Shown: positions 51,227 to 56,026 of the stretch, in pieces | Numbering within the stretch: position 1 is the first letter of the stretch | How the letters are laid out: each line of letters opens with the position of its first letter | NCBI GenBank assembly: GCA_016182095.1 | Contig: JACOXY010000001.1 | Location: forward strand, 1 to 57,993 | DNA length: 57,993 bases | Direction: 5' to 3' | From: Candidatus Liptonbacteria bacterium | GTDB taxonomy: Bacteria; Patescibacteriota; Minisyncoccia; UBA6257; JACOXY01 | Position numbers and translations under genes: made by a program | Notes under the pieces: model-generated | Database searches by the model: none | What the model was told of the DNA's origin: nothing | The model's input: the letters and a program-made list of their open reading frames with translations, nothing else

Positions 51227-52924
51227 CTAAAGTTTGATTTTTTTTATTGAGTTGGGCGCTTTCGGATTCCGAAGTAATCTCTCTAGAGCATCCTCCGCGC
51301 GGTAACGCGCTTCTTTATATTTTTGTTCTTCCTCTGCCCTTCTCGTTTTATCCTGTTTTTTCTTTTCTGCTTCAGTTCCTGAAGCGCGCTCTACTAAAAT
51401 ATCCAAGACTTCTTTTCTGGTTATTGTTCTTCCTTCAAATAAAATTTGCCCAGTAACTCCGGATAGAATTTCCTTGAAGACGTTTGCCATTTTTTCTCTC
51501 ATTTCAGGATCAGCCAAGCGATCTAAATAGTACCTATCTGCGGCCGCTCCTATGGTAGCCGCGAAGTCAACCCTTCCGGTTGCCTTATCCCTTGTTTGGA
51601 AAGTGTCCAAATAGGAAAAAAGTCTAAGCGCGTTTCTCCCGGAAAATTCCATCTGCTGCGTGCGGCGACGCCTTTCGCCTTTTATTACCACCGAATCTCC
51701 AACCTGCTCGTAATTTTTAACAAATTCCGCGTCCATTAAATCAACAATGTCCGCTATCTGGCTCCCCAGCTCTTCATCTAAGACAGCATCCCATTCGATC
51801 CCCCGCCTAAGAGGTATCGCGATCTTTCCCGCTTCATGACCAGGCACGCCGGATTCAAATCCTTCAAGTTCTTTGGTTCTTTTTGTAAGCCGCCCTCCAG
51901 CCGTTCTGCGGATCGCGCTCTTCTTTTTAGAAACTTCTTCCGGCGTAAGCGTCTTCCAGGTTAAGCGGTCAGCCATGGGAGCAACAACCTCGCTTCTCCC
52001 GGGAGTTTTTTCGGGAAAATTTGAAGCAAAACCAATCCAGGTGTCCTCGCCGCGTTCGTAGCGCGTCTTGCCGCTGTTTCCCCAAAAGCTTATGGAATCC
52101 GAAAGGCCACCGCGATCTCCTCCAATTTGCAAAAAAATCTGCTGATAGTTGGAGGGGATAAGATTAAATTCATCAACAATCAAAATATAACCGCGGCCGT
52201 GATTCCCGCTATAAGCCCTAAGAAGCGCGCCCTCTTTAAACTCCCACTCGGCCTCCTTGCCCAAAATTGTTTTCATTTTGCCGGAAGAAACAAATGCGCT
52301 CTTAAGACTATCTATATAATCGCTTGAGAGCTCGCCAAATTTTTCTTGAAATTGTTCCAGGTTCAGTTTCCCATCCTGAAATTTGCGGTTCAAGAGAGCG
52401 AGTTCACCGTCAAATTTATTTTTCAATTTCCGATGTTCTTCCCCTTCAGTAACTTCTAAAAACGCTTCGCCATATTTTCCCGCGTCTCTCTCTCTAAGCC
52501 CCTTGGGCGCCCAGTGGCCCAGGATCTCAAGCTCCGAAGTTCGTGGCGTGCCTACGAGTTCCAAAATAGGGGCGTCTTTCCCGTTAATTAGCGCCGCAAA
52601 CTTTTTCATTAAAAATGTTTTACCAGAACCCGGATCACCTTCAAATAAGAGCGGCTGGCGTAATTTATAGGACTCCACGATGGCGCGTAGTAAACCCTGG
52701 TCAGTTTCCGAAAGAATCATCTCTCCTCTTATAGTTTCCACGTCTTCTTTTGAGGCGTATGTTGGCACCTCTACCCCAAAAATGTTTACAAGTGGGCGAT
52801 CTTCACCGGTTGCCGCATCTTTCTCCACGCGATATAAAATACCGCCCGCCCTCATAAGTTCCAAGCGTAGCTCTTCTTCTCTTTTTTGCTCATCGTCTTG
52901 AAAATGTAGCGACTCTCCAGGCAT
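51227..52924 (-). CDS. MoxR-like AAA+ ATPase (AAA_5)
   Basis: Walker A EGDPGSGKT, Walker B LIVDEFN, ASN..PG, MADRL, FSGRN. Confidence 0.85.
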   Translation of the reverse strand: MPGESLHFQDDEQKREEELRLELMRAGGILYRVEKDAATGEDRPLVNIFGVEVPTYASKEDVETIRGEMILSETDQGLLRAIVESYKLRQPLLFEGDPGSGKTFLMKKFAALINGKDAPILELVGTPRTSELEILGHWAPKGLRERDAGKYGEAFLEVTEGEEHRKLKNKFDGELALLNRKFQDGKLNLEQFQEKFGELSSDYIDSLKSAFVSSGKMKTILGKEAEWEFKEGALLRAYSGNHGRGYILIVDEFNLIPSNYQQIFLQIGGDRGGLSDSISFWGNSGKTRYERGEDTWIGFASNFPEKTPGRSEVVAPMADRLTWKTLTPEEVSKKKSAIRRTAGGRLTKRTKELEGFESGVPGHEAGKIAIPLRRGIEWDAVLDEELGSQIADIVDLMDAEFVKNYEQVGDSVVIKGERRRRTQQMEFSGRNALRLFSYLDTFQTRDKATGRVDFAATIGAAADRYYLDRLADPEMREKMANVFKEILSGVTGQILFEGRTITRKEVLDILVERASGTEAEKKKQDKTRRAEEEQKYKEARYRAEDALERLLRNPKAPNSIKKIKL

Positions 52925-52944
52925 GATGTAGCGCGATTTTAATA

Positions 52945-53412: not shown

Positions 53413-53557
53413 ACCCAGTATATCAACCCAGTAGTAGAACGTTCCGCTCACTACCGGGCCTTGCTTCCAGCCTTAGGAAGCGTAGCGACAATAGGAGCGA
53501 AGTCCAGCATAATGCCATGCATTTATGCCGGGTTGTATTACTGGGCATAATATAATA

Positions 53558-56026
53558 TTAATACTTATCCGGATTTTTTACAACATCCTCTAAAAGATCT
53601 GCCAACTTCTCGGCAAAGTCCTTCTTGCCTTTGGCGTGCTCCTCGGGAGATGGCTTCACAGCGGACATGACTATTCCAAGATCATAACCGTAATTTTTCA
53701 TAAGCGCTTGGAGCAGCGCCTCATCATCCGCTTCGCCAAGCCAAACAAGGCCGATTTTAATCTTAAGGCGCTCGCGTTCCTCTTTGCTGCTTGAAAGAAA
53801 TTCGCGAAGCTTATCCCGAACATCATAGTTAGGAGCGCCGTCGGTGTAAGTGAGAATATAGTTCCCCGTTTTACCAAGATTGTCTTTCATCTTCTCATAC
53901 GCAATTACCGTTGCCAAATAGGTATTAGTGCCGGCATCTTGGTCTTTCACGCGCTCCAGCATAGCTCCAAGTTTGCTCTCTATATCACGCGTGAAACGTT
54001 CCCGCATCTCTTTAAACTCAAAAACGCGATTATGGAAACCAGTGATGCCCTGATGTATTTCCGCAGTCCCGGAATTTAGGTCCTCCAAACGATCAAGCGC
54101 TTCGCCCATCGCCGCGAATCCCTTAACCGTTTCCATAATTTTTTCACCGCTCATTGATCCGGAGAGATCAATCAAATGCCAAAATCTACAGCTTATTTTT
54201 TCCGGCGCCGTTTCCCTAATAAAAAGTTTCTGCTTTTGAGCCACGTCTCGCTCGGCCTGCATGGCTCGGCTCATGTCAGGGCGGGCGCCTTGTGGATACC
54301 CGGCTTCTTCTCCGCCATACTCTTCCGGCCGAAAAATTTGCCTTAATCTGAAATAAAGGTGATCAATAAGACCGCTTACTTCTCTCCGTATTTTTTCATA
54401 ATCGGACATTGACTCTACCCGCAATTGTTCAAACTTCCGCTCTAGAGCATCCCGATCTTCCTTGGCCGCCCGGCTTTTTTGGGCCGCGTCTCTTTTTTTA
54501 TCTTCTCCTGCCCGCCTTTCTTCGTGGCTTTTGGGGTTATCTTCGTTTAATCTCCCATCCATTTCTTTATTAATTCCGTCTTCAATCTGTTCCAATTGCC
54601 GCTCCGCTTTGTCGCGCAGTTCCGCGCGCTTTTTAGCGGGAAGTCTCTTAAAAAGTTTCTGGAGTTCGGCTTTGGTTTCTTCGCTTAAGGCGTCCTCCGG
54701 AAAAGGCGCGCCTTCTTCGGACTCCGCGTTTTTGAGCGCTTCGCTAATTTTTTTAATATCTAATTCCGCCTGCTTCGCCTTCATTTCATTCGCCAACTTT
54801 TCGCCTTGTTTTTTCTTTATTTCATTCTGAAGCGCTTCCTTTTCATCTCCGCTTGCCTCGCTCGCCCTCTTTTCCAAATCTTTAATCTCCTTCAAGAGCT
54901 CTGCTTGCTTTTGCTCTGCCGCGCGTCTCATCGCTTCTTTTTCATCAATTTCCTTACTTAACTTTTCCACCGCTTCACGCACGGCTTTATTTATCTCTTC
55001 CAATAATTCTTTTTTCGCGTCTTCCGTTAAATCTTTAAATGGATCCAGTTCTTTATTCAGGCGGTCTATTTCTTTTTGAAGTTCGTTTTGTTTTTCATTG
55101 TCACCCTGTTTTCGCGCTCCATCCAGTTCTTGCTTTTTTTGATTCAATTCTTTTTGTTTTTGAAGGAATTCATTCACCATTTGCCTTTGTTCTTCCGTGC
55201 GCAAATCCATCTCCACGAGTTTTTTAACTTCCGGCCAGATTTCTTCATGGTAAATCCTAAAACACTCTCGCGCCTTTTCTACCACTCCCGGTTCATGAAG
55301 CGCGCGATTGGTCGGAGGTAATGTTTGCCAATATCTCGTGGCGGCATTCTGCGTTCGGCGCAAAAACTTTTCCACTTCCGGTTTTAATCTTCCGCTATAT
55401 TGGCCCAAATGCCAAAAACGCATAAGCTCAGAAGCGGCTTCGGCGTATCGGGGATATCTCCCTAACCTGGAAATAATAAGGTTAACCTCCGGAGCGATAA
55501 ACTTCGCGTTCTCTTCCCGTAATTGCTCGTCATATACTTCCTTGTTTAACAGTATAAGCCCGGGAAATTTAGCCGTGTCCCAAGTATTCACGCGTGGATC
55601 TTCAAGGCCGATGTTATTAAAAGAGTGGAATCCTAAATATTCACCCAGCCCCAAACGAAGCGCGGTTTCCTTAGGCAGTCCGATCTCATGCGTGCCACGC
55701 GTTATGGCGCGATGCGCGCCTTCATGCGCCGCAATTCTTTGAGCTTTCCGCGGATGCTCTATTACGAACAGCGGGTTCACGGTTATGCTTCTCTCGGCTG
55801 TATTTTCATAAGCAACATAAGGAACGCGTTCAGTTTCGCCGGTAAGCGGATTCCTCTGCTCTAAAAACGGCGGGCCCTGCTCCACCTTCATTCCAAAATC
55901 ACCGCCAACTCTTCTCGCGATTGTCTGAAGCTTTTCCCACTCTTCTTTTGGGATTTCTATGAAGATTTCTTCTTGTTGCGCCTCCTCCCCTTTTTTATCT
56001 TCTGCTTCACGAAGTTTTTCGCTCAT
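53558..56026 (-). CDS. vWA-domain protein with N-terminal HExxH metallopeptidase-like region and central coiled coil
   Basis: AHEGAH and LEDPRVN; E/K/Q-rich coil; MIDAS DLSGSM, GTNT, TYTDG. Confidence 0.85.
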   Translation of the reverse strand: MSEKLREAEDKKGEEAQQEEIFIEIPKEEWEKLQTIARRVGGDFGMKVEQGPPFLEQRNPLTGETERVPYVAYENTAERSITVNPLFVIEHPRKAQRIAAHEGAHRAITRGTHEIGLPKETALRLGLGEYLGFHSFNNIGLEDPRVNTWDTAKFPGLILLNKEVYDEQLREENAKFIAPEVNLIISRLGRYPRYAEAASELMRFWHLGQYSGRLKPEVEKFLRRTQNAATRYWQTLPPTNRALHEPGVVEKARECFRIYHEEIWPEVKKLVEMDLRTEEQRQMVNEFLQKQKELNQKKQELDGARKQGDNEKQNELQKEIDRLNKELDPFKDLTEDAKKELLEEINKAVREAVEKLSKEIDEKEAMRRAAEQKQAELLKEIKDLEKRASEASGDEKEALQNEIKKKQGEKLANEMKAKQAELDIKKISEALKNAESEEGAPFPEDALSEETKAELQKLFKRLPAKKRAELRDKAERQLEQIEDGINKEMDGRLNEDNPKSHEERRAGEDKKRDAAQKSRAAKEDRDALERKFEQLRVESMSDYEKIRREVSGLIDHLYFRLRQIFRPEEYGGEEAGYPQGARPDMSRAMQAERDVAQKQKLFIRETAPEKISCRFWHLIDLSGSMSGEKIMETVKGFAAMGEALDRLEDLNSGTAEIHQGITGFHNRVFEFKEMRERFTRDIESKLGAMLERVKDQDAGTNTYLATVIAYEKMKDNLGKTGNYILTYTDGAPNYDVRDKLREFLSSSKEERERLKIKIGLVWLGEADDEALLQALMKNYGYDLGIVMSAVKPSPEEHAKGKKDFAEKLADLLEDVVKNPDKY

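What the first reader, a model, noticed from the sequence alone, without database searches (positions are those of the whole stretch)
51227..56026. MoxR AAA+ / unknown / HExxH-coiled-coil-vWA module directly downstream of the DGR RT
Seen: RT stop is 26 nt from an 822-aa protein with HEGAH + EDPRVN, a ~270-aa coil and an intact MIDAS vWA; then a 155-aa ORF and a MoxR ATPase, all co-oriented. Known: MoxR ATPases work with vWA partners as chaperones/remodellers, and some MoxR-vWA systems act in biological conflict. Inference: a protease-remodeller effector whose specificity might be supplied by the DGR-diversified protein; the 155-aa ORF could be an adaptor or immunity factor. Neither MoxR nor vWA ends in a VR-like sequence.
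Basis: partly seen in the sequence, partly recalled or inferred. Interest (0 to 1): 0.7.

Follow-up and report, generated by a model that had tools for sequence, protein, structure and literature searches.

The report
DGR-linked ATPase, pseudo-ATPase, zincin-vWA trio
The three genes after the reverse transcriptase encode an ATP-driven motor, a dead copy of such a motor and a zinc-protease-like metal-site adaptor. In tiny groundwater bacteria and archaea this set usually carries, or sits beside, the proteins that the retroelement hypermutates.

Summary
In detail: the coordinates, HEGAH/EDPRVN, the ~300-aa coil, the intact MIDAS and the co-oriented ORFs are all present.

The components are now better defined:
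- The 565-aa protein is an AAA_5 (MoxR/midasin-class) ATPase.
- The 155-aa "unknown" folds as an AAA+ core with no P-loop, so it is a pseudo-ATPase.
- The vWA domain is structurally closest to the NorD and Rea1/MDN1 MIDAS domains.
- The N-terminal HExxH...E domain is conserved but matches no Pfam family.

The refutation tests fail. HExxH is near-invariant in 101 homologues. Of 41 related loci with enough flank, 23 carry a DGR RT/Avd. In at least 17 loci the ATPase itself ends in the adenine-mutated variable repeat.

The published part is the AAA-CLec fusion, reported as the commonest CPR DGR target. I found no description of the zincin-vWA and pseudo-AAA partners in the papers I could read.

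This window holds a receptor-less subclade version. Its ATPase has no VR but has a coiled-coil insert. The trio follows an RT whose nearest relative diversifies an AAA::VR, and the local target lies beyond the contig end. Relatives without a DGR pair the trio with beta-propeller proteins.

The best reading is a cytoplasmic remodeller/protease chassis aimed by interchangeable receptors. The mechanism is inferred, not shown.

The parts
57965..57993 (-). Last codons and stop (..CRVVLFEK*) of the DGR target gene, i.e. the 3' end of the variable repeat. The rest of the gene lies beyond the contig end.
   Evidence: TTGCCGTGTTGTTCTGTTCGA occurs both here and at the 3' end of the TR. Logan contigs break at this point and depth rises about fourfold at 57895-57993.
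57490..57625 (-). DGR template repeat. It encodes ..NGNWNVPCVGWNATDARWHRNANWLTNGWNGNCRVVLF.
   Evidence: DNA alignment with the TR and VR of L042; the TR-frame peptide hits the C-terminal VR domain family of the L042/L066/L043 ATPases (E 9e-22).
57132..57461 (+). bAvd-like accessory protein, encoded on the strand opposite to the RT (the CPR 'B3' architecture).
   Evidence: PF22296 bAvd E 1.9e-8, below the gathering score; the same reversed Avd sits next to the RT in about 30 relatives. Wu 2018, PMC5758913.
56053..57048 (-). DGR reverse transcriptase, 331 aa.
   Evidence: RVT_1 E 1.3e-22. LGNLTSQ and YADD; sister to the L042 RT (56% identity, SH-aLRT support 99).
53558..56026 (-). 822-aa protein with three parts: a zincin-like domain (aa ~27-245), a charged coiled coil (~245-564) and a MIDAS vWA domain (~570-822) ending in a conserved LLEDxxxNPxKY tail.
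   Evidence: AF2 pLDDT 90.5; best Foldseek matches are NorD and Rea1/MDN1 MIDAS.
55712..55726 (-). HEGAH motif (aa 101-105) on the predicted active-site helix 92-108.
   Evidence: H101, E102, G103 and H105 are each at least 90% conserved in 101 sequences.
55586..55603 (-). EDPRVN (aa 142-147) on helix 133-153. E142 is the candidate third zinc ligand.
   Evidence: E142 is invariant in 101 sequences; D143 and N147 are at least 90% conserved. Secondary structure.
54155..54169 (-). MIDAS DxSxS motif (DLSGS, aa 620-624). The other MIDAS residues are in GTNT 699-702 and at D729.
   Evidence: D620, S624 and D729 are invariant and S622 is at least 90% conserved.
52945..53412 (-). 155-aa pseudo-ATPase: an AAA+ alpha/beta core fold without a Walker A motif. 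It is the conserved middle gene of the trio.
   Evidence: AF2 pLDDT 93, pTM 0.87. Foldseek matches RuvB, NorQ, dynein AAA modules and CbbQ (E 3e-5 to 5e-4, TM 0.56-0.65); no GK[ST]; homologous to the small ORF of the distant clade (hhalign probability 95%, E 2e-8).
51227..52924 (-). 565-aa AAA_5 ATPase. Walker A at aa 96-103, Walker B at 247-252, N302, R310, and an insert of about 100 aa between them. It has no C-terminal variable domain.
   Evidence: In the alignment K102, E252 and N302 are invariant in 47 homologues.

Best explanation
The three genes form one conserved machine of Patescibacteria and DPANN archaea:
- an active AAA_5 (MoxR/midasin-class) ATPase;
- a P-loop-less AAA+ core protein (a pseudo-ATPase);
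- a partner protein that joins a zincin-like HExxH...E domain, through a ~300-residue charged coiled coil, to a NorD/Rea1-type MIDAS vWA domain.

Across relatives this machine is the chassis for hypervariable lectin-type receptors written by a DGR. The receptor is either fused to the C-terminus of the ATPase (the large clade) or encoded as a separate gene inside or beside the trio (the window's clade).

In this window the trio is the receptor-less form. It starts 26 nt after the RT, on the same strand. The DGR's variable protein lies just upstream, beyond the contig end.

Inferred mechanism:
1. None of the proteins has a signal peptide or membrane segment, so the machine works in the cytoplasm.
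2. A variable receptor binds a ligand.
3. The AAA_5 ring, organised with the pseudo-ATPase and held to the vWA protein as NorQ holds NorD, uses ATP to pull on or remodel the bound protein.
4. The MIDAS site grips an acidic residue, and the tethered zincin domain cleaves the substrate or is switched on.

Shown here: component identities, conservation of the catalytic and MIDAS residues, conservation of the trio, and its linkage to DGRs and VRs.
Inferred: complex formation, proteolysis, the nature of the ligand, and that this copy uses the neighbouring DGR's target.
For: Components:
- AAA_5 above the Pfam cut-off, with intact Walker A/B, sensor-1 Asn and Arg residues.
- The small protein models at pLDDT 93. 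Its best fold matches are AAA+ cores (RuvB, NorQ, dynein, CbbQ), and it has no P-loop.
- The vWA model's top fold matches are NorD in NorQD complexes and the Rea1/MDN1 MIDAS domains, E 2e-7 to 1e-5.
- HExxH, E142 and the MIDAS residues are at least 90% conserved or invariant in 101 sequences.
- The N-terminal domain family has 856 cluster representatives. Nearly all are 650-1000 aa long, with the domain at the N-terminus.

Trio conservation:
- vWA, small ORF and AAA occur in this order in the great majority of the 79 genome loci.

DGR linkage:
- TR/VR pairs with at least 80% adenine-specific mismatches occur in 30 loci.
- The VR lies inside the ATPase C-terminus in at least 17 loci. L042 is an example.
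- RT/Avd is present in 23 of 41 loci with at least 6.5 kb of downstream flank.
- The RT directly abuts the vWA gene, as in the window, in L008, L018, L019, L025 and L026. These lie in separate branches of the vWA and RT trees.
- In L021, the closest long relative, two VR-bearing targets are interleaved with the trio.
- Stand-alone targets are homologous to the ATPase's C-terminal receptor domain.
- DGR-less loci of the window's clade instead have WD40/PD40 beta-propeller genes beside the trio.

Cytoplasmic location:
- No hydrophobic segment; the maximum Kyte-Doolittle 19-residue mean is at most 1.0.

Literature:
- An AAA ATPase fused to CLec is the commonest CPR DGR target (Paul 2017, as cited in PMC10907252). 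UVR4 targets match the Midasin AAA domain (PMC5758913).
Against: - This copy's ATPase has no VR, and the DGR's target was not recovered.
- The window's RT and TR are closest to L042, whose DGR serves a trio of the other subclade. The adjacency here could therefore be two neighbouring modules rather than one unit.
- In the window's subclade, several loci with 10-kb flanks have no RT: L005, L011, L016, L017 and L041.
- The zincin-like domain matches no peptidase family in Pfam or by sequence in the PDB. Its fold could not be searched on its own, because the vWA domain dominated the full-length fold search.
- There are no expression data; no RNA run holds the locus.
- No protein-protein complex was modelled.
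Confidence: 0.6

Rival explanations
1. Independent paralogous module. The VR-less trio in this window works without the neighbouring DGR, either with other binding partners or alone. It lies next to the RT only because such modules cluster in tandem.
For: - The window's RT and TR group with L042, whose DGR diversifies an ATPase of the other subclade.
- L043 shows two complete DGR units in tandem, with the next vWA gene 1.8 kb after RT1.
- Loci of the window's subclade with full flanks but no RT exist (L005, L011, L016, L017, L041). Some of them have beta-propeller neighbours instead.
Against: - The RT-vWA gap is only 26 nt, on the same strand, with no terminator-like site in the gap.
- The same tight RT-to-vWA junction recurs in five other loci from different branches.
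- L021, of the same subclade, interleaves VR targets with the trio.
Confidence: 0.25
2. DGR accessory machinery. The trio helps mutagenic retrohoming itself, for example by remodelling the RT-Avd-RNA complex or by helping cDNA integration, rather than serving the variable protein's function.
For: It is adjacent and co-oriented with the RT here and in five other loci. AAA+ remodellers often act on nucleoprotein complexes (general knowledge).
Against: - In most relatives the ATPase is the mutagenesis target, not a bystander.
- The trio persists in loci without any RT, Avd or TR.
- Characterised DGRs need only RT, Avd and TR RNA (Wu 2018, PMC5758913).
Confidence: 0.05
3. Housekeeping assembly chaperone of the NorQD, CbbQO, CobST or BchID kind (metal insertion or complex maturation). 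The DGR association would be incidental and the HExxH site would be a metal-handling rather than a proteolytic site.
For: - The vWA fold is closest to NorD.
- Some homologues carry precomputed hits to CobT_C, PF11775.
- An active AAA, an inactive AAA and a vWA domain is the domain logic of the BchI/BchD magnesium chelatase (general knowledge).
Against: - No client enzyme genes (NorB, Rubisco, CobN, BchH) were seen beside the trio in the window or in the loci examined.
- Linkage to hypervariable receptors and DGRs is the dominant context.
- Neighbours change from locus to locus except for the receptors.
Confidence: 0.07

Closest known systems
CPR/DPANN DGRs whose variable protein is an AAA ATPase fused to a C-type-lectin domain (Paul et al. 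2017, as summarised in PMC10907252; architecture B3 and UVR4/Midasin-like targets in Wu et al. 2018, PMC5758913)
   Same: - Same RT lineage and the same reversed-avd layout.
- Same TR class.
- The ATPase here is a homologue of those targets.
   Different: - This copy's ATPase lacks the lectin/VR domain and has a ~100-aa insert between Walker A and B.
- The conserved zincin-coil-vWA partner and the pseudo-AAA middle gene are not mentioned in any paper I could read. Paul 2017 itself is not held, so this could not be checked there.
MoxR-vWA ternary conflict systems (VMAP, iSTAND, FtsH and beta-propeller types; Kaur et al. 2020, PMC7159879), with DGR-diversified FGS/CLec sensors (Dore et al. 2024, PMC10907252)
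   Same: - An AAA+ of the MoxR kind, a vWA partner and a third component.
- Linkage to DGR-diversified lectin domains.
- An inactive NTPase as third component (compare iSTAND).
- Beta-propeller partners in some loci.
- A predicted sensor-transducer-effector logic.
   Different: - No VMAP or iSTAND domain; Pfam finds none.
[quoted passage not shown]
- The peptidase-like domain is N-terminal on the vWA protein.
- The hosts are ultra-small CPR/DPANN cells, not multicellular bacteria.
- Dore et al. state that CPR/DPANN clade 5F DGRs lack conflict-system domains.
NorQ-NorD, CbbQ-CbbO and Rea1/Midasin (AAA_5 motor plus MIDAS domain)
   Same: - AAA_5 ATPase.
- A MIDAS vWA domain whose closest structures are NorD and Rea1/MDN1 MIDAS.
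- A long linker between motor-binding and MIDAS parts, as in Midasin.
   Different: - No known client (nitric oxide reductase, Rubisco, pre-ribosome).
- An added zincin-like domain and a separate pseudo-AAA subunit.
- Association with hypervariable receptors.
Magnesium and cobalt chelatase motors BchI/BchD and CobS/CobT
   Same: An active AAA+ combined with a degenerate AAA+ module and a vWA/MIDAS domain joined by an acidic linker. Homologues carry CobT_C hits.
   Different: Here the degenerate AAA+ is a separate 155-aa protein. There is no BchH/CobN-like catalytic subunit in the neighbourhood, and the vWA protein has an HExxH domain.

Membership tests
Diversity-generating retroelement (context of the finding) | RT with the [ILV]GxxxSQ and YxDD motifs | tested here: met
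   LGNLTSQ at 190 and YADD at 222. RVT_1 E 1.3e-22.
Diversity-generating retroelement (context of the finding) | TR/VR pair that differs at adenines of the TR | tested here: inconclusive
   Only about 21-29 nt of the VR lie in the window, and that stretch has no informative adenines. In 30 related loci the TR/VR pairs show at least 80% A-specific mismatches. The window's TR aligns with L042's TR.
Diversity-generating retroelement (context of the finding) | Avd accessory protein | tested here: met
   PF22296 bAvd E 1.9e-8, 35.2 bits, below the cut-off of 40. It is homologous to the Avd ORFs beside the RTs of about 30 loci.
MoxR-class / AAA_5 AAA+ ATPase | Match to the AAA_5 model above its curated cut-off, with Walker A, Walker B and sensor-1 | tested here: met
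   36.7 bits against a cut-off of 22. 45 of 47 family members match. GDPGSGKT and ILIVDE are present; K102, E252 and N302 are invariant.
MoxR-class / AAA_5 AAA+ ATPase | Helix-2 insert and pre-sensor-1 hairpin of the MoxR clade; hexameric ring | not tested
   No structure was predicted for the ATPase, because both prediction jobs went to the other two proteins. The ~100-aa insert after beta-2 lies where a helix-2 insert would be. That placement is an inference.
MoxR-class / AAA_5 AAA+ ATPase | Adjacent vWA/MIDAS partner gene | tested here: met
   The vWA gene is two genes upstream here. The vWA-small-AAA order is kept in the great majority of the 79 loci.
vWA domain with MIDAS (NorD/Rea1 type) | DxSxS...T...D metal site | tested here: met
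   DLSGS 620-624, GTNT 699-702 and D729. These residues are invariant or nearly so in 101 sequences.
vWA domain with MIDAS (NorD/Rea1 type) | vWA fold | tested here: met
   AF2 pLDDT 90.5. Foldseek top hits are 9qhd_G (NorD), 6qtb/6qta (Rea1 MIDAS) and 8ql1 (MDN1 MIDAS), probability 1.00. By sequence, VWA_2 scores only 18.2 bits against a cut-off of 27.
Zincin metallopeptidase (gluzincin-like) | HExxH on a helix preceded by a beta-sheet, with a third ligand on a following helix | tested here: met
   Five strands at 47-83, helix 92-108 carrying HEGAH, and helix 133-153 carrying the invariant E142. The geometry of the site could not be measured.
Zincin metallopeptidase (gluzincin-like) | Membership of a described peptidase family (Pfam/MEROPS), including DUF2201_N | tested here: not met
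   No Pfam family at E up to 1 for 36 N-terminal domains, apart from two weak Zn_peptidase_2 hits at E 0.025. No PDB sequence match.
Zincin metallopeptidase (gluzincin-like) | Proteolytic activity | not testable with these tools
   This needs a biochemical assay.
VMAP / iSTAND ternary conflict systems (Kaur 2020) | Third component with a VMAP-C or iSTAND domain | tested here: not met
   The third gene is a 155-aa AAA+ core with no Pfam match. The only hints are bpX1 at E 0.086 and VMAP-M5 at E 0.16 in one member.

The most novel reading that the evidence does not exclude
Patescibacteria and DPANN archaea may share a cytoplasmic, DGR-programmable recognition-and-destruction machine.
- It would be a split, midasin-like AAA_5 ring organised by a pseudo-ATPase.
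- The ring would be coupled through a MIDAS adaptor to a previously unclassified zincin protease.
- It would be aimed by interchangeable receptors: hypermutated lectin domains (fused or free) or beta-propellers.

That would be an antibody-like, protein-level targeting system, for example against phage or host proteins. In this window the receptor-less motor set would work in trans with the variable protein encoded upstream of the RT.
Probability: 0.3. Interest if true: 0.85.

Novelty: new variant of a known kind. Interest (0 to 1): 0.55.

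Why it matters
DGR targets in ultra-small bacteria and archaea are numerous, and nobody knows what they do. If the commonest target, a hypervariable ATPase, always travels with a MIDAS adaptor carrying a conserved zinc-protease motif and with a pseudo-ATPase, there is a concrete hypothesis to test at the bench: a programmable intracellular remodeller or protease. It would also extend the link between MoxR-vWA conflict systems and DGRs from multicellular bacteria to the smallest known cells. 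The receptor-less variant in this window, and its beta-propeller-associated relatives, suggest that the receptor is a swappable part. This is the kind of modularity that could be used for engineered targeting.

Tried and rejected
The rest of the assembly, and therefore the target gene, could not be reached.
- The look-up of encoding contigs for the 822-aa protein gave only two short Logan contigs that end at the same place.
- Laying the Logan contigs of four groundwater runs showed that every assembly breaks at 57895-57993, where depth rises about fourfold, indicating a repeat.
- No RNA run holds the locus, so co-transcription is untested.
- Paul et al. 2017 is not held under its DOI or PMC id. 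What it says is taken from PMC10907252.
- The full-length model's fold search was dominated by the vWA domain, so the zincin-like domain got no structural match of its own. Sequence-profile searches of that domain against PDB and Pfam found nothing significant.
- The 1.84-billion-protein profile search listed only same-architecture proteins among its best 150. It therefore gave no bridge to a known peptidase family.
- PADLOC found no defence-system model for the trio. The ZorA and mad8 hits are coil and P-loop noise.
- The 127-nt repeats at 14157, 15390 and 17602 were checked as possible TR/VR copies. They are intergenic palindromes, not VRs.
- 'Immunity factor' for the 155-aa ORF was rejected on the basis of its fold.

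Full report
**What is in the window**

All the genes of the finding lie on the minus strand. In order of transcription they are:

| Feature | Coordinates | Size / note |
|---|---|---|
| End of a gene that runs off the contig (..CRVVLFEK*) | stop at 57965-57967 | only the last codons are visible |
| Template repeat (TR) | ~57490-57625 | |
| bAvd-like ORF, on the plus strand | 57132-57461 | 109 aa |
| Reverse transcriptase (RT) | 56053-57048 | 331 aa |
| Zincin-coil-vWA protein | 53558-56026 | 822 aa, starts 26 nt after the RT stop |
| Small ORF | 52945-53412 | 155 aa from the ATG |
| AAA_5 ATPase | 51227-52924 | 565 aa |
| Alanine racemase and an FtsQ-like gene | from 51158 downward | housekeeping |

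- The RT has the DGR hallmarks LGNLTSQ and YADD.
- The Avd matches PF22296 at E 1.9e-8.
- The 21 nt TTGCCGTGTTGTTCTGTTCGA at the 3' end of the TR recur at the contig edge, where the target gene ends.
- No TR/VR pair lies inside the window.

**What the three proteins are**

*The ATPase.*
- It matches AAA_5 above the curated cut-off. So do 45 of 47 homologues, whereas the narrow MoxR model AAA_3 matches one.
- Lys102, Glu252 and Asn302 are invariant in the alignment.
- Against more distant relatives, it has an insert of about 100 residues between Walker A and Walker B.

*The 822-aa protein.*
- It was modelled from a 101-sequence alignment with mean pLDDT 90.5.
- The model shows a five-stranded sheet, then a helix carrying HEGAH, then a helix carrying the invariant Glu142. 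Next come about 300 residues of long helices, and finally a vWA domain.
- The best solved-structure matches are NorD in NorQ-NorD complexes and the MIDAS domains of Rea1 and human MDN1, E 2e-7 to 1e-5. These are the vWA domains that work with AAA_5 motors.
- The N-terminal domain has the zincin secondary-structure layout and near-invariant H101, E102, H105 and E142.
- That domain matches no Pfam family and no PDB sequence.
- A profile search of 1.84 billion proteins found 856 cluster representatives. Almost all are 650-1000 aa long with the domain at the N-terminus.

*The 155-aa protein.*
- It was modelled at pLDDT 93.
- Its best fold matches are AAA+ cores: RuvB, NorQ, dynein modules and CbbQ, with TM 0.56-0.65.
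- It has no GK[ST] motif. It is therefore a pseudo-ATPase, not an immunity protein.

None of the three proteins has a hydrophobic segment, so they are predicted to be cytoplasmic.

**Relatives**

- The 822-aa protein has 90 close cluster representatives in Patescibacteria and Aenigmatarchaeota.
- A scan of one genome per species returned 79 loci. They are nearly all CPR, with a few DPANN archaea.
- Iterative searches in these loci show the same order everywhere: vWA protein, small ORF, ATPase.
- The small ORFs of the distant clade are homologous to the window's small protein (hhalign probability 95%, E 2e-8).

**Link to DGRs**

- A self-comparison of every locus found TR/VR pairs with at least 80% adenine-specific mismatches in 30 loci.
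- In the large clade the usual layout is vWA - small - ATPase::VR - (second target::VR) - TR - Avd (reversed) - RT. L042 is an example: the ATPase ends ..HWNVPCVRWRGSGWRRDARWLDDDWRSSYRVVLLEK and the TR encodes the Asn-rich counterpart.
- The VR lies inside the ATPase in at least 17 loci.
- An RT or Avd is present in 23 of 41 loci with at least 6.5 kb of downstream flank.
For genomes of about 1 Mb with a few DGRs at most, chance adjacency should be a few per cent. That figure rests on general knowledge.
- Stand-alone second targets are homologous to the ATPase's C-terminal receptor domain.

**Where this copy sits**

- On a vWA tree the window belongs to a well-supported subclade of 15-17 loci. 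Their ATPases carry the insert and lack a VR (545-565 aa), or have a different 300-aa tail (L011, L012, L016).
- Within this subclade:
  - L021 interleaves two VR-bearing 450-aa targets with the trio, followed by a TR and a truncated RT.
  - L008 has the window's order, RT remnant - vWA - small - ATPase, followed by unrelated transporter genes.
  - L025 has TR - Avd - RT - vWA - target::VR.
  - L005, L011, L016, L017 and L041 have no RT within 10 kb. L003, L005 and L017 have WD40/PD40 beta-propeller genes next to the trio instead.
- The RT directly abuts the vWA gene in L018, L019 and L026 too. These lie in other branches.
- The window's own RT is sister to that of L042 (56% identity, support 99).
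- The window's TR peptide belongs to a VR class found only on ATPases: L042, L066 and a 976-aa AAA protein in L043.
- The missing target is therefore most likely an AAA::lectin protein. The in-window trio is either its partner set or a second, receptor-less module in tandem.

**What could not be settled**

- The contig ends in the VR. All Logan assemblies of four groundwater runs break in the same 100 nt, where depth rises about fourfold.
- No RNA run holds the locus.
- Consensus scans show no terminator-like site in the 26-nt RT-vWA gap. Such scans are weak evidence.

**Mechanism**

The parts suggest the following steps:
1. An AAA_5 ring is held to a MIDAS adaptor, as in NorQD or Midasin.
2. 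A degenerate AAA+ subunit takes part, as in the chelatase motor BchI/BchD.
3. A tethered zincin-like domain sits on the adaptor.
4. A receptor is hypermutated and either fused to the ring, free, or replaced by a beta-propeller.

I read this as a cytoplasmic, receptor-aimed remodeller or protease. It follows the sensor-transducer-effector logic proposed for MoxR-vWA conflict systems (PMC7159879; PMC10907252). Complex formation, proteolysis and the ligand are all inferred.

**Comparison with published work**

- The AAA-CLec fusion is published as the commonest CPR DGR target (Paul 2017, via PMC10907252). The reversed-avd B3 layout and the Midasin-like targets are in Wu 2018.
- DGR-linked MoxR-vWA ternary systems are known in cyanobacteria and other multicellular bacteria. 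There the VR is on the vWA protein and the third component is VMAP or iSTAND, neither of which is found here.
- I found no mention of the zincin-vWA partner or the pseudo-AAA gene for CPR DGRs in the papers I could search. Paul 2017 itself could not be read.

**Earlier notes of this scan**

I consulted the scan's earlier notes only after reaching the main reading. Several describe the same module in other genomes and agree with this reading. They are not independent evidence.

**Verdict**

This is a real, conserved, DGR-linked module. The window holds a new variant of a known kind.

Noticed in passing
window 57895-57993: In all four groundwater runs the assembler depth rises about fourfold over the last 100 nt, and every contig breaks here. 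A multi-copy repeat therefore overlaps the end of the DGR target gene.
   Followed up: partly
window 57092-57102: A run of 11 C (plus strand) lies in the short spacer between the RT start and the divergent avd gene. Another first-stage note suggests phase variation.
   Followed up: no
window 14157-14283, 15390-15516, 17602-17728: Three copies (86-88% identical) of a 127-nt AT-rich intergenic element built around a perfect GTCCCCCACCGC...GCGGTGGGGGAC hairpin. It looks like a MITE or terminator cassette and is not a TR/VR.
   Followed up: partly
window 2687-2896: tRNA-Val(CAC) at 2687-2759 is followed by two further 57-nt direct copies of its 3' part. This may be the footprint of repeated integration at the tRNA.
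   Followed up: partly
window 42499-49002: A block of Ser/Thr/Gly-rich, apparently secreted or surface proteins lies downstream of the trio. It includes a 751-aa protein with a weak Gly_rich_2 match and paralogous C-terminal domains (a 120-nt repeat at 43752 and 44983).
   Followed up: no
L005:14517-16842, L003:8682-9896, L017:8657-9931: In DGR-less loci of the window's subclade, WD40/PD40 beta-propeller proteins sit directly beside the trio. They may take the receptor role.
   Followed up: partly
L021:17837-18490: The RT of the closest long relative is truncated to 217 aa and read through from the TR. No Avd was detected, so this is a decaying DGR beside two intact-looking VR targets.
   Followed up: partly
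L011:4933-7512, L012:3823-6363, L016:9859-12438: Three ATPases of the window's subclade carry a ~300-aa C-terminal extension that is not VR-like and matches nothing I tested. It may be another kind of receptor domain.
   Followed up: no
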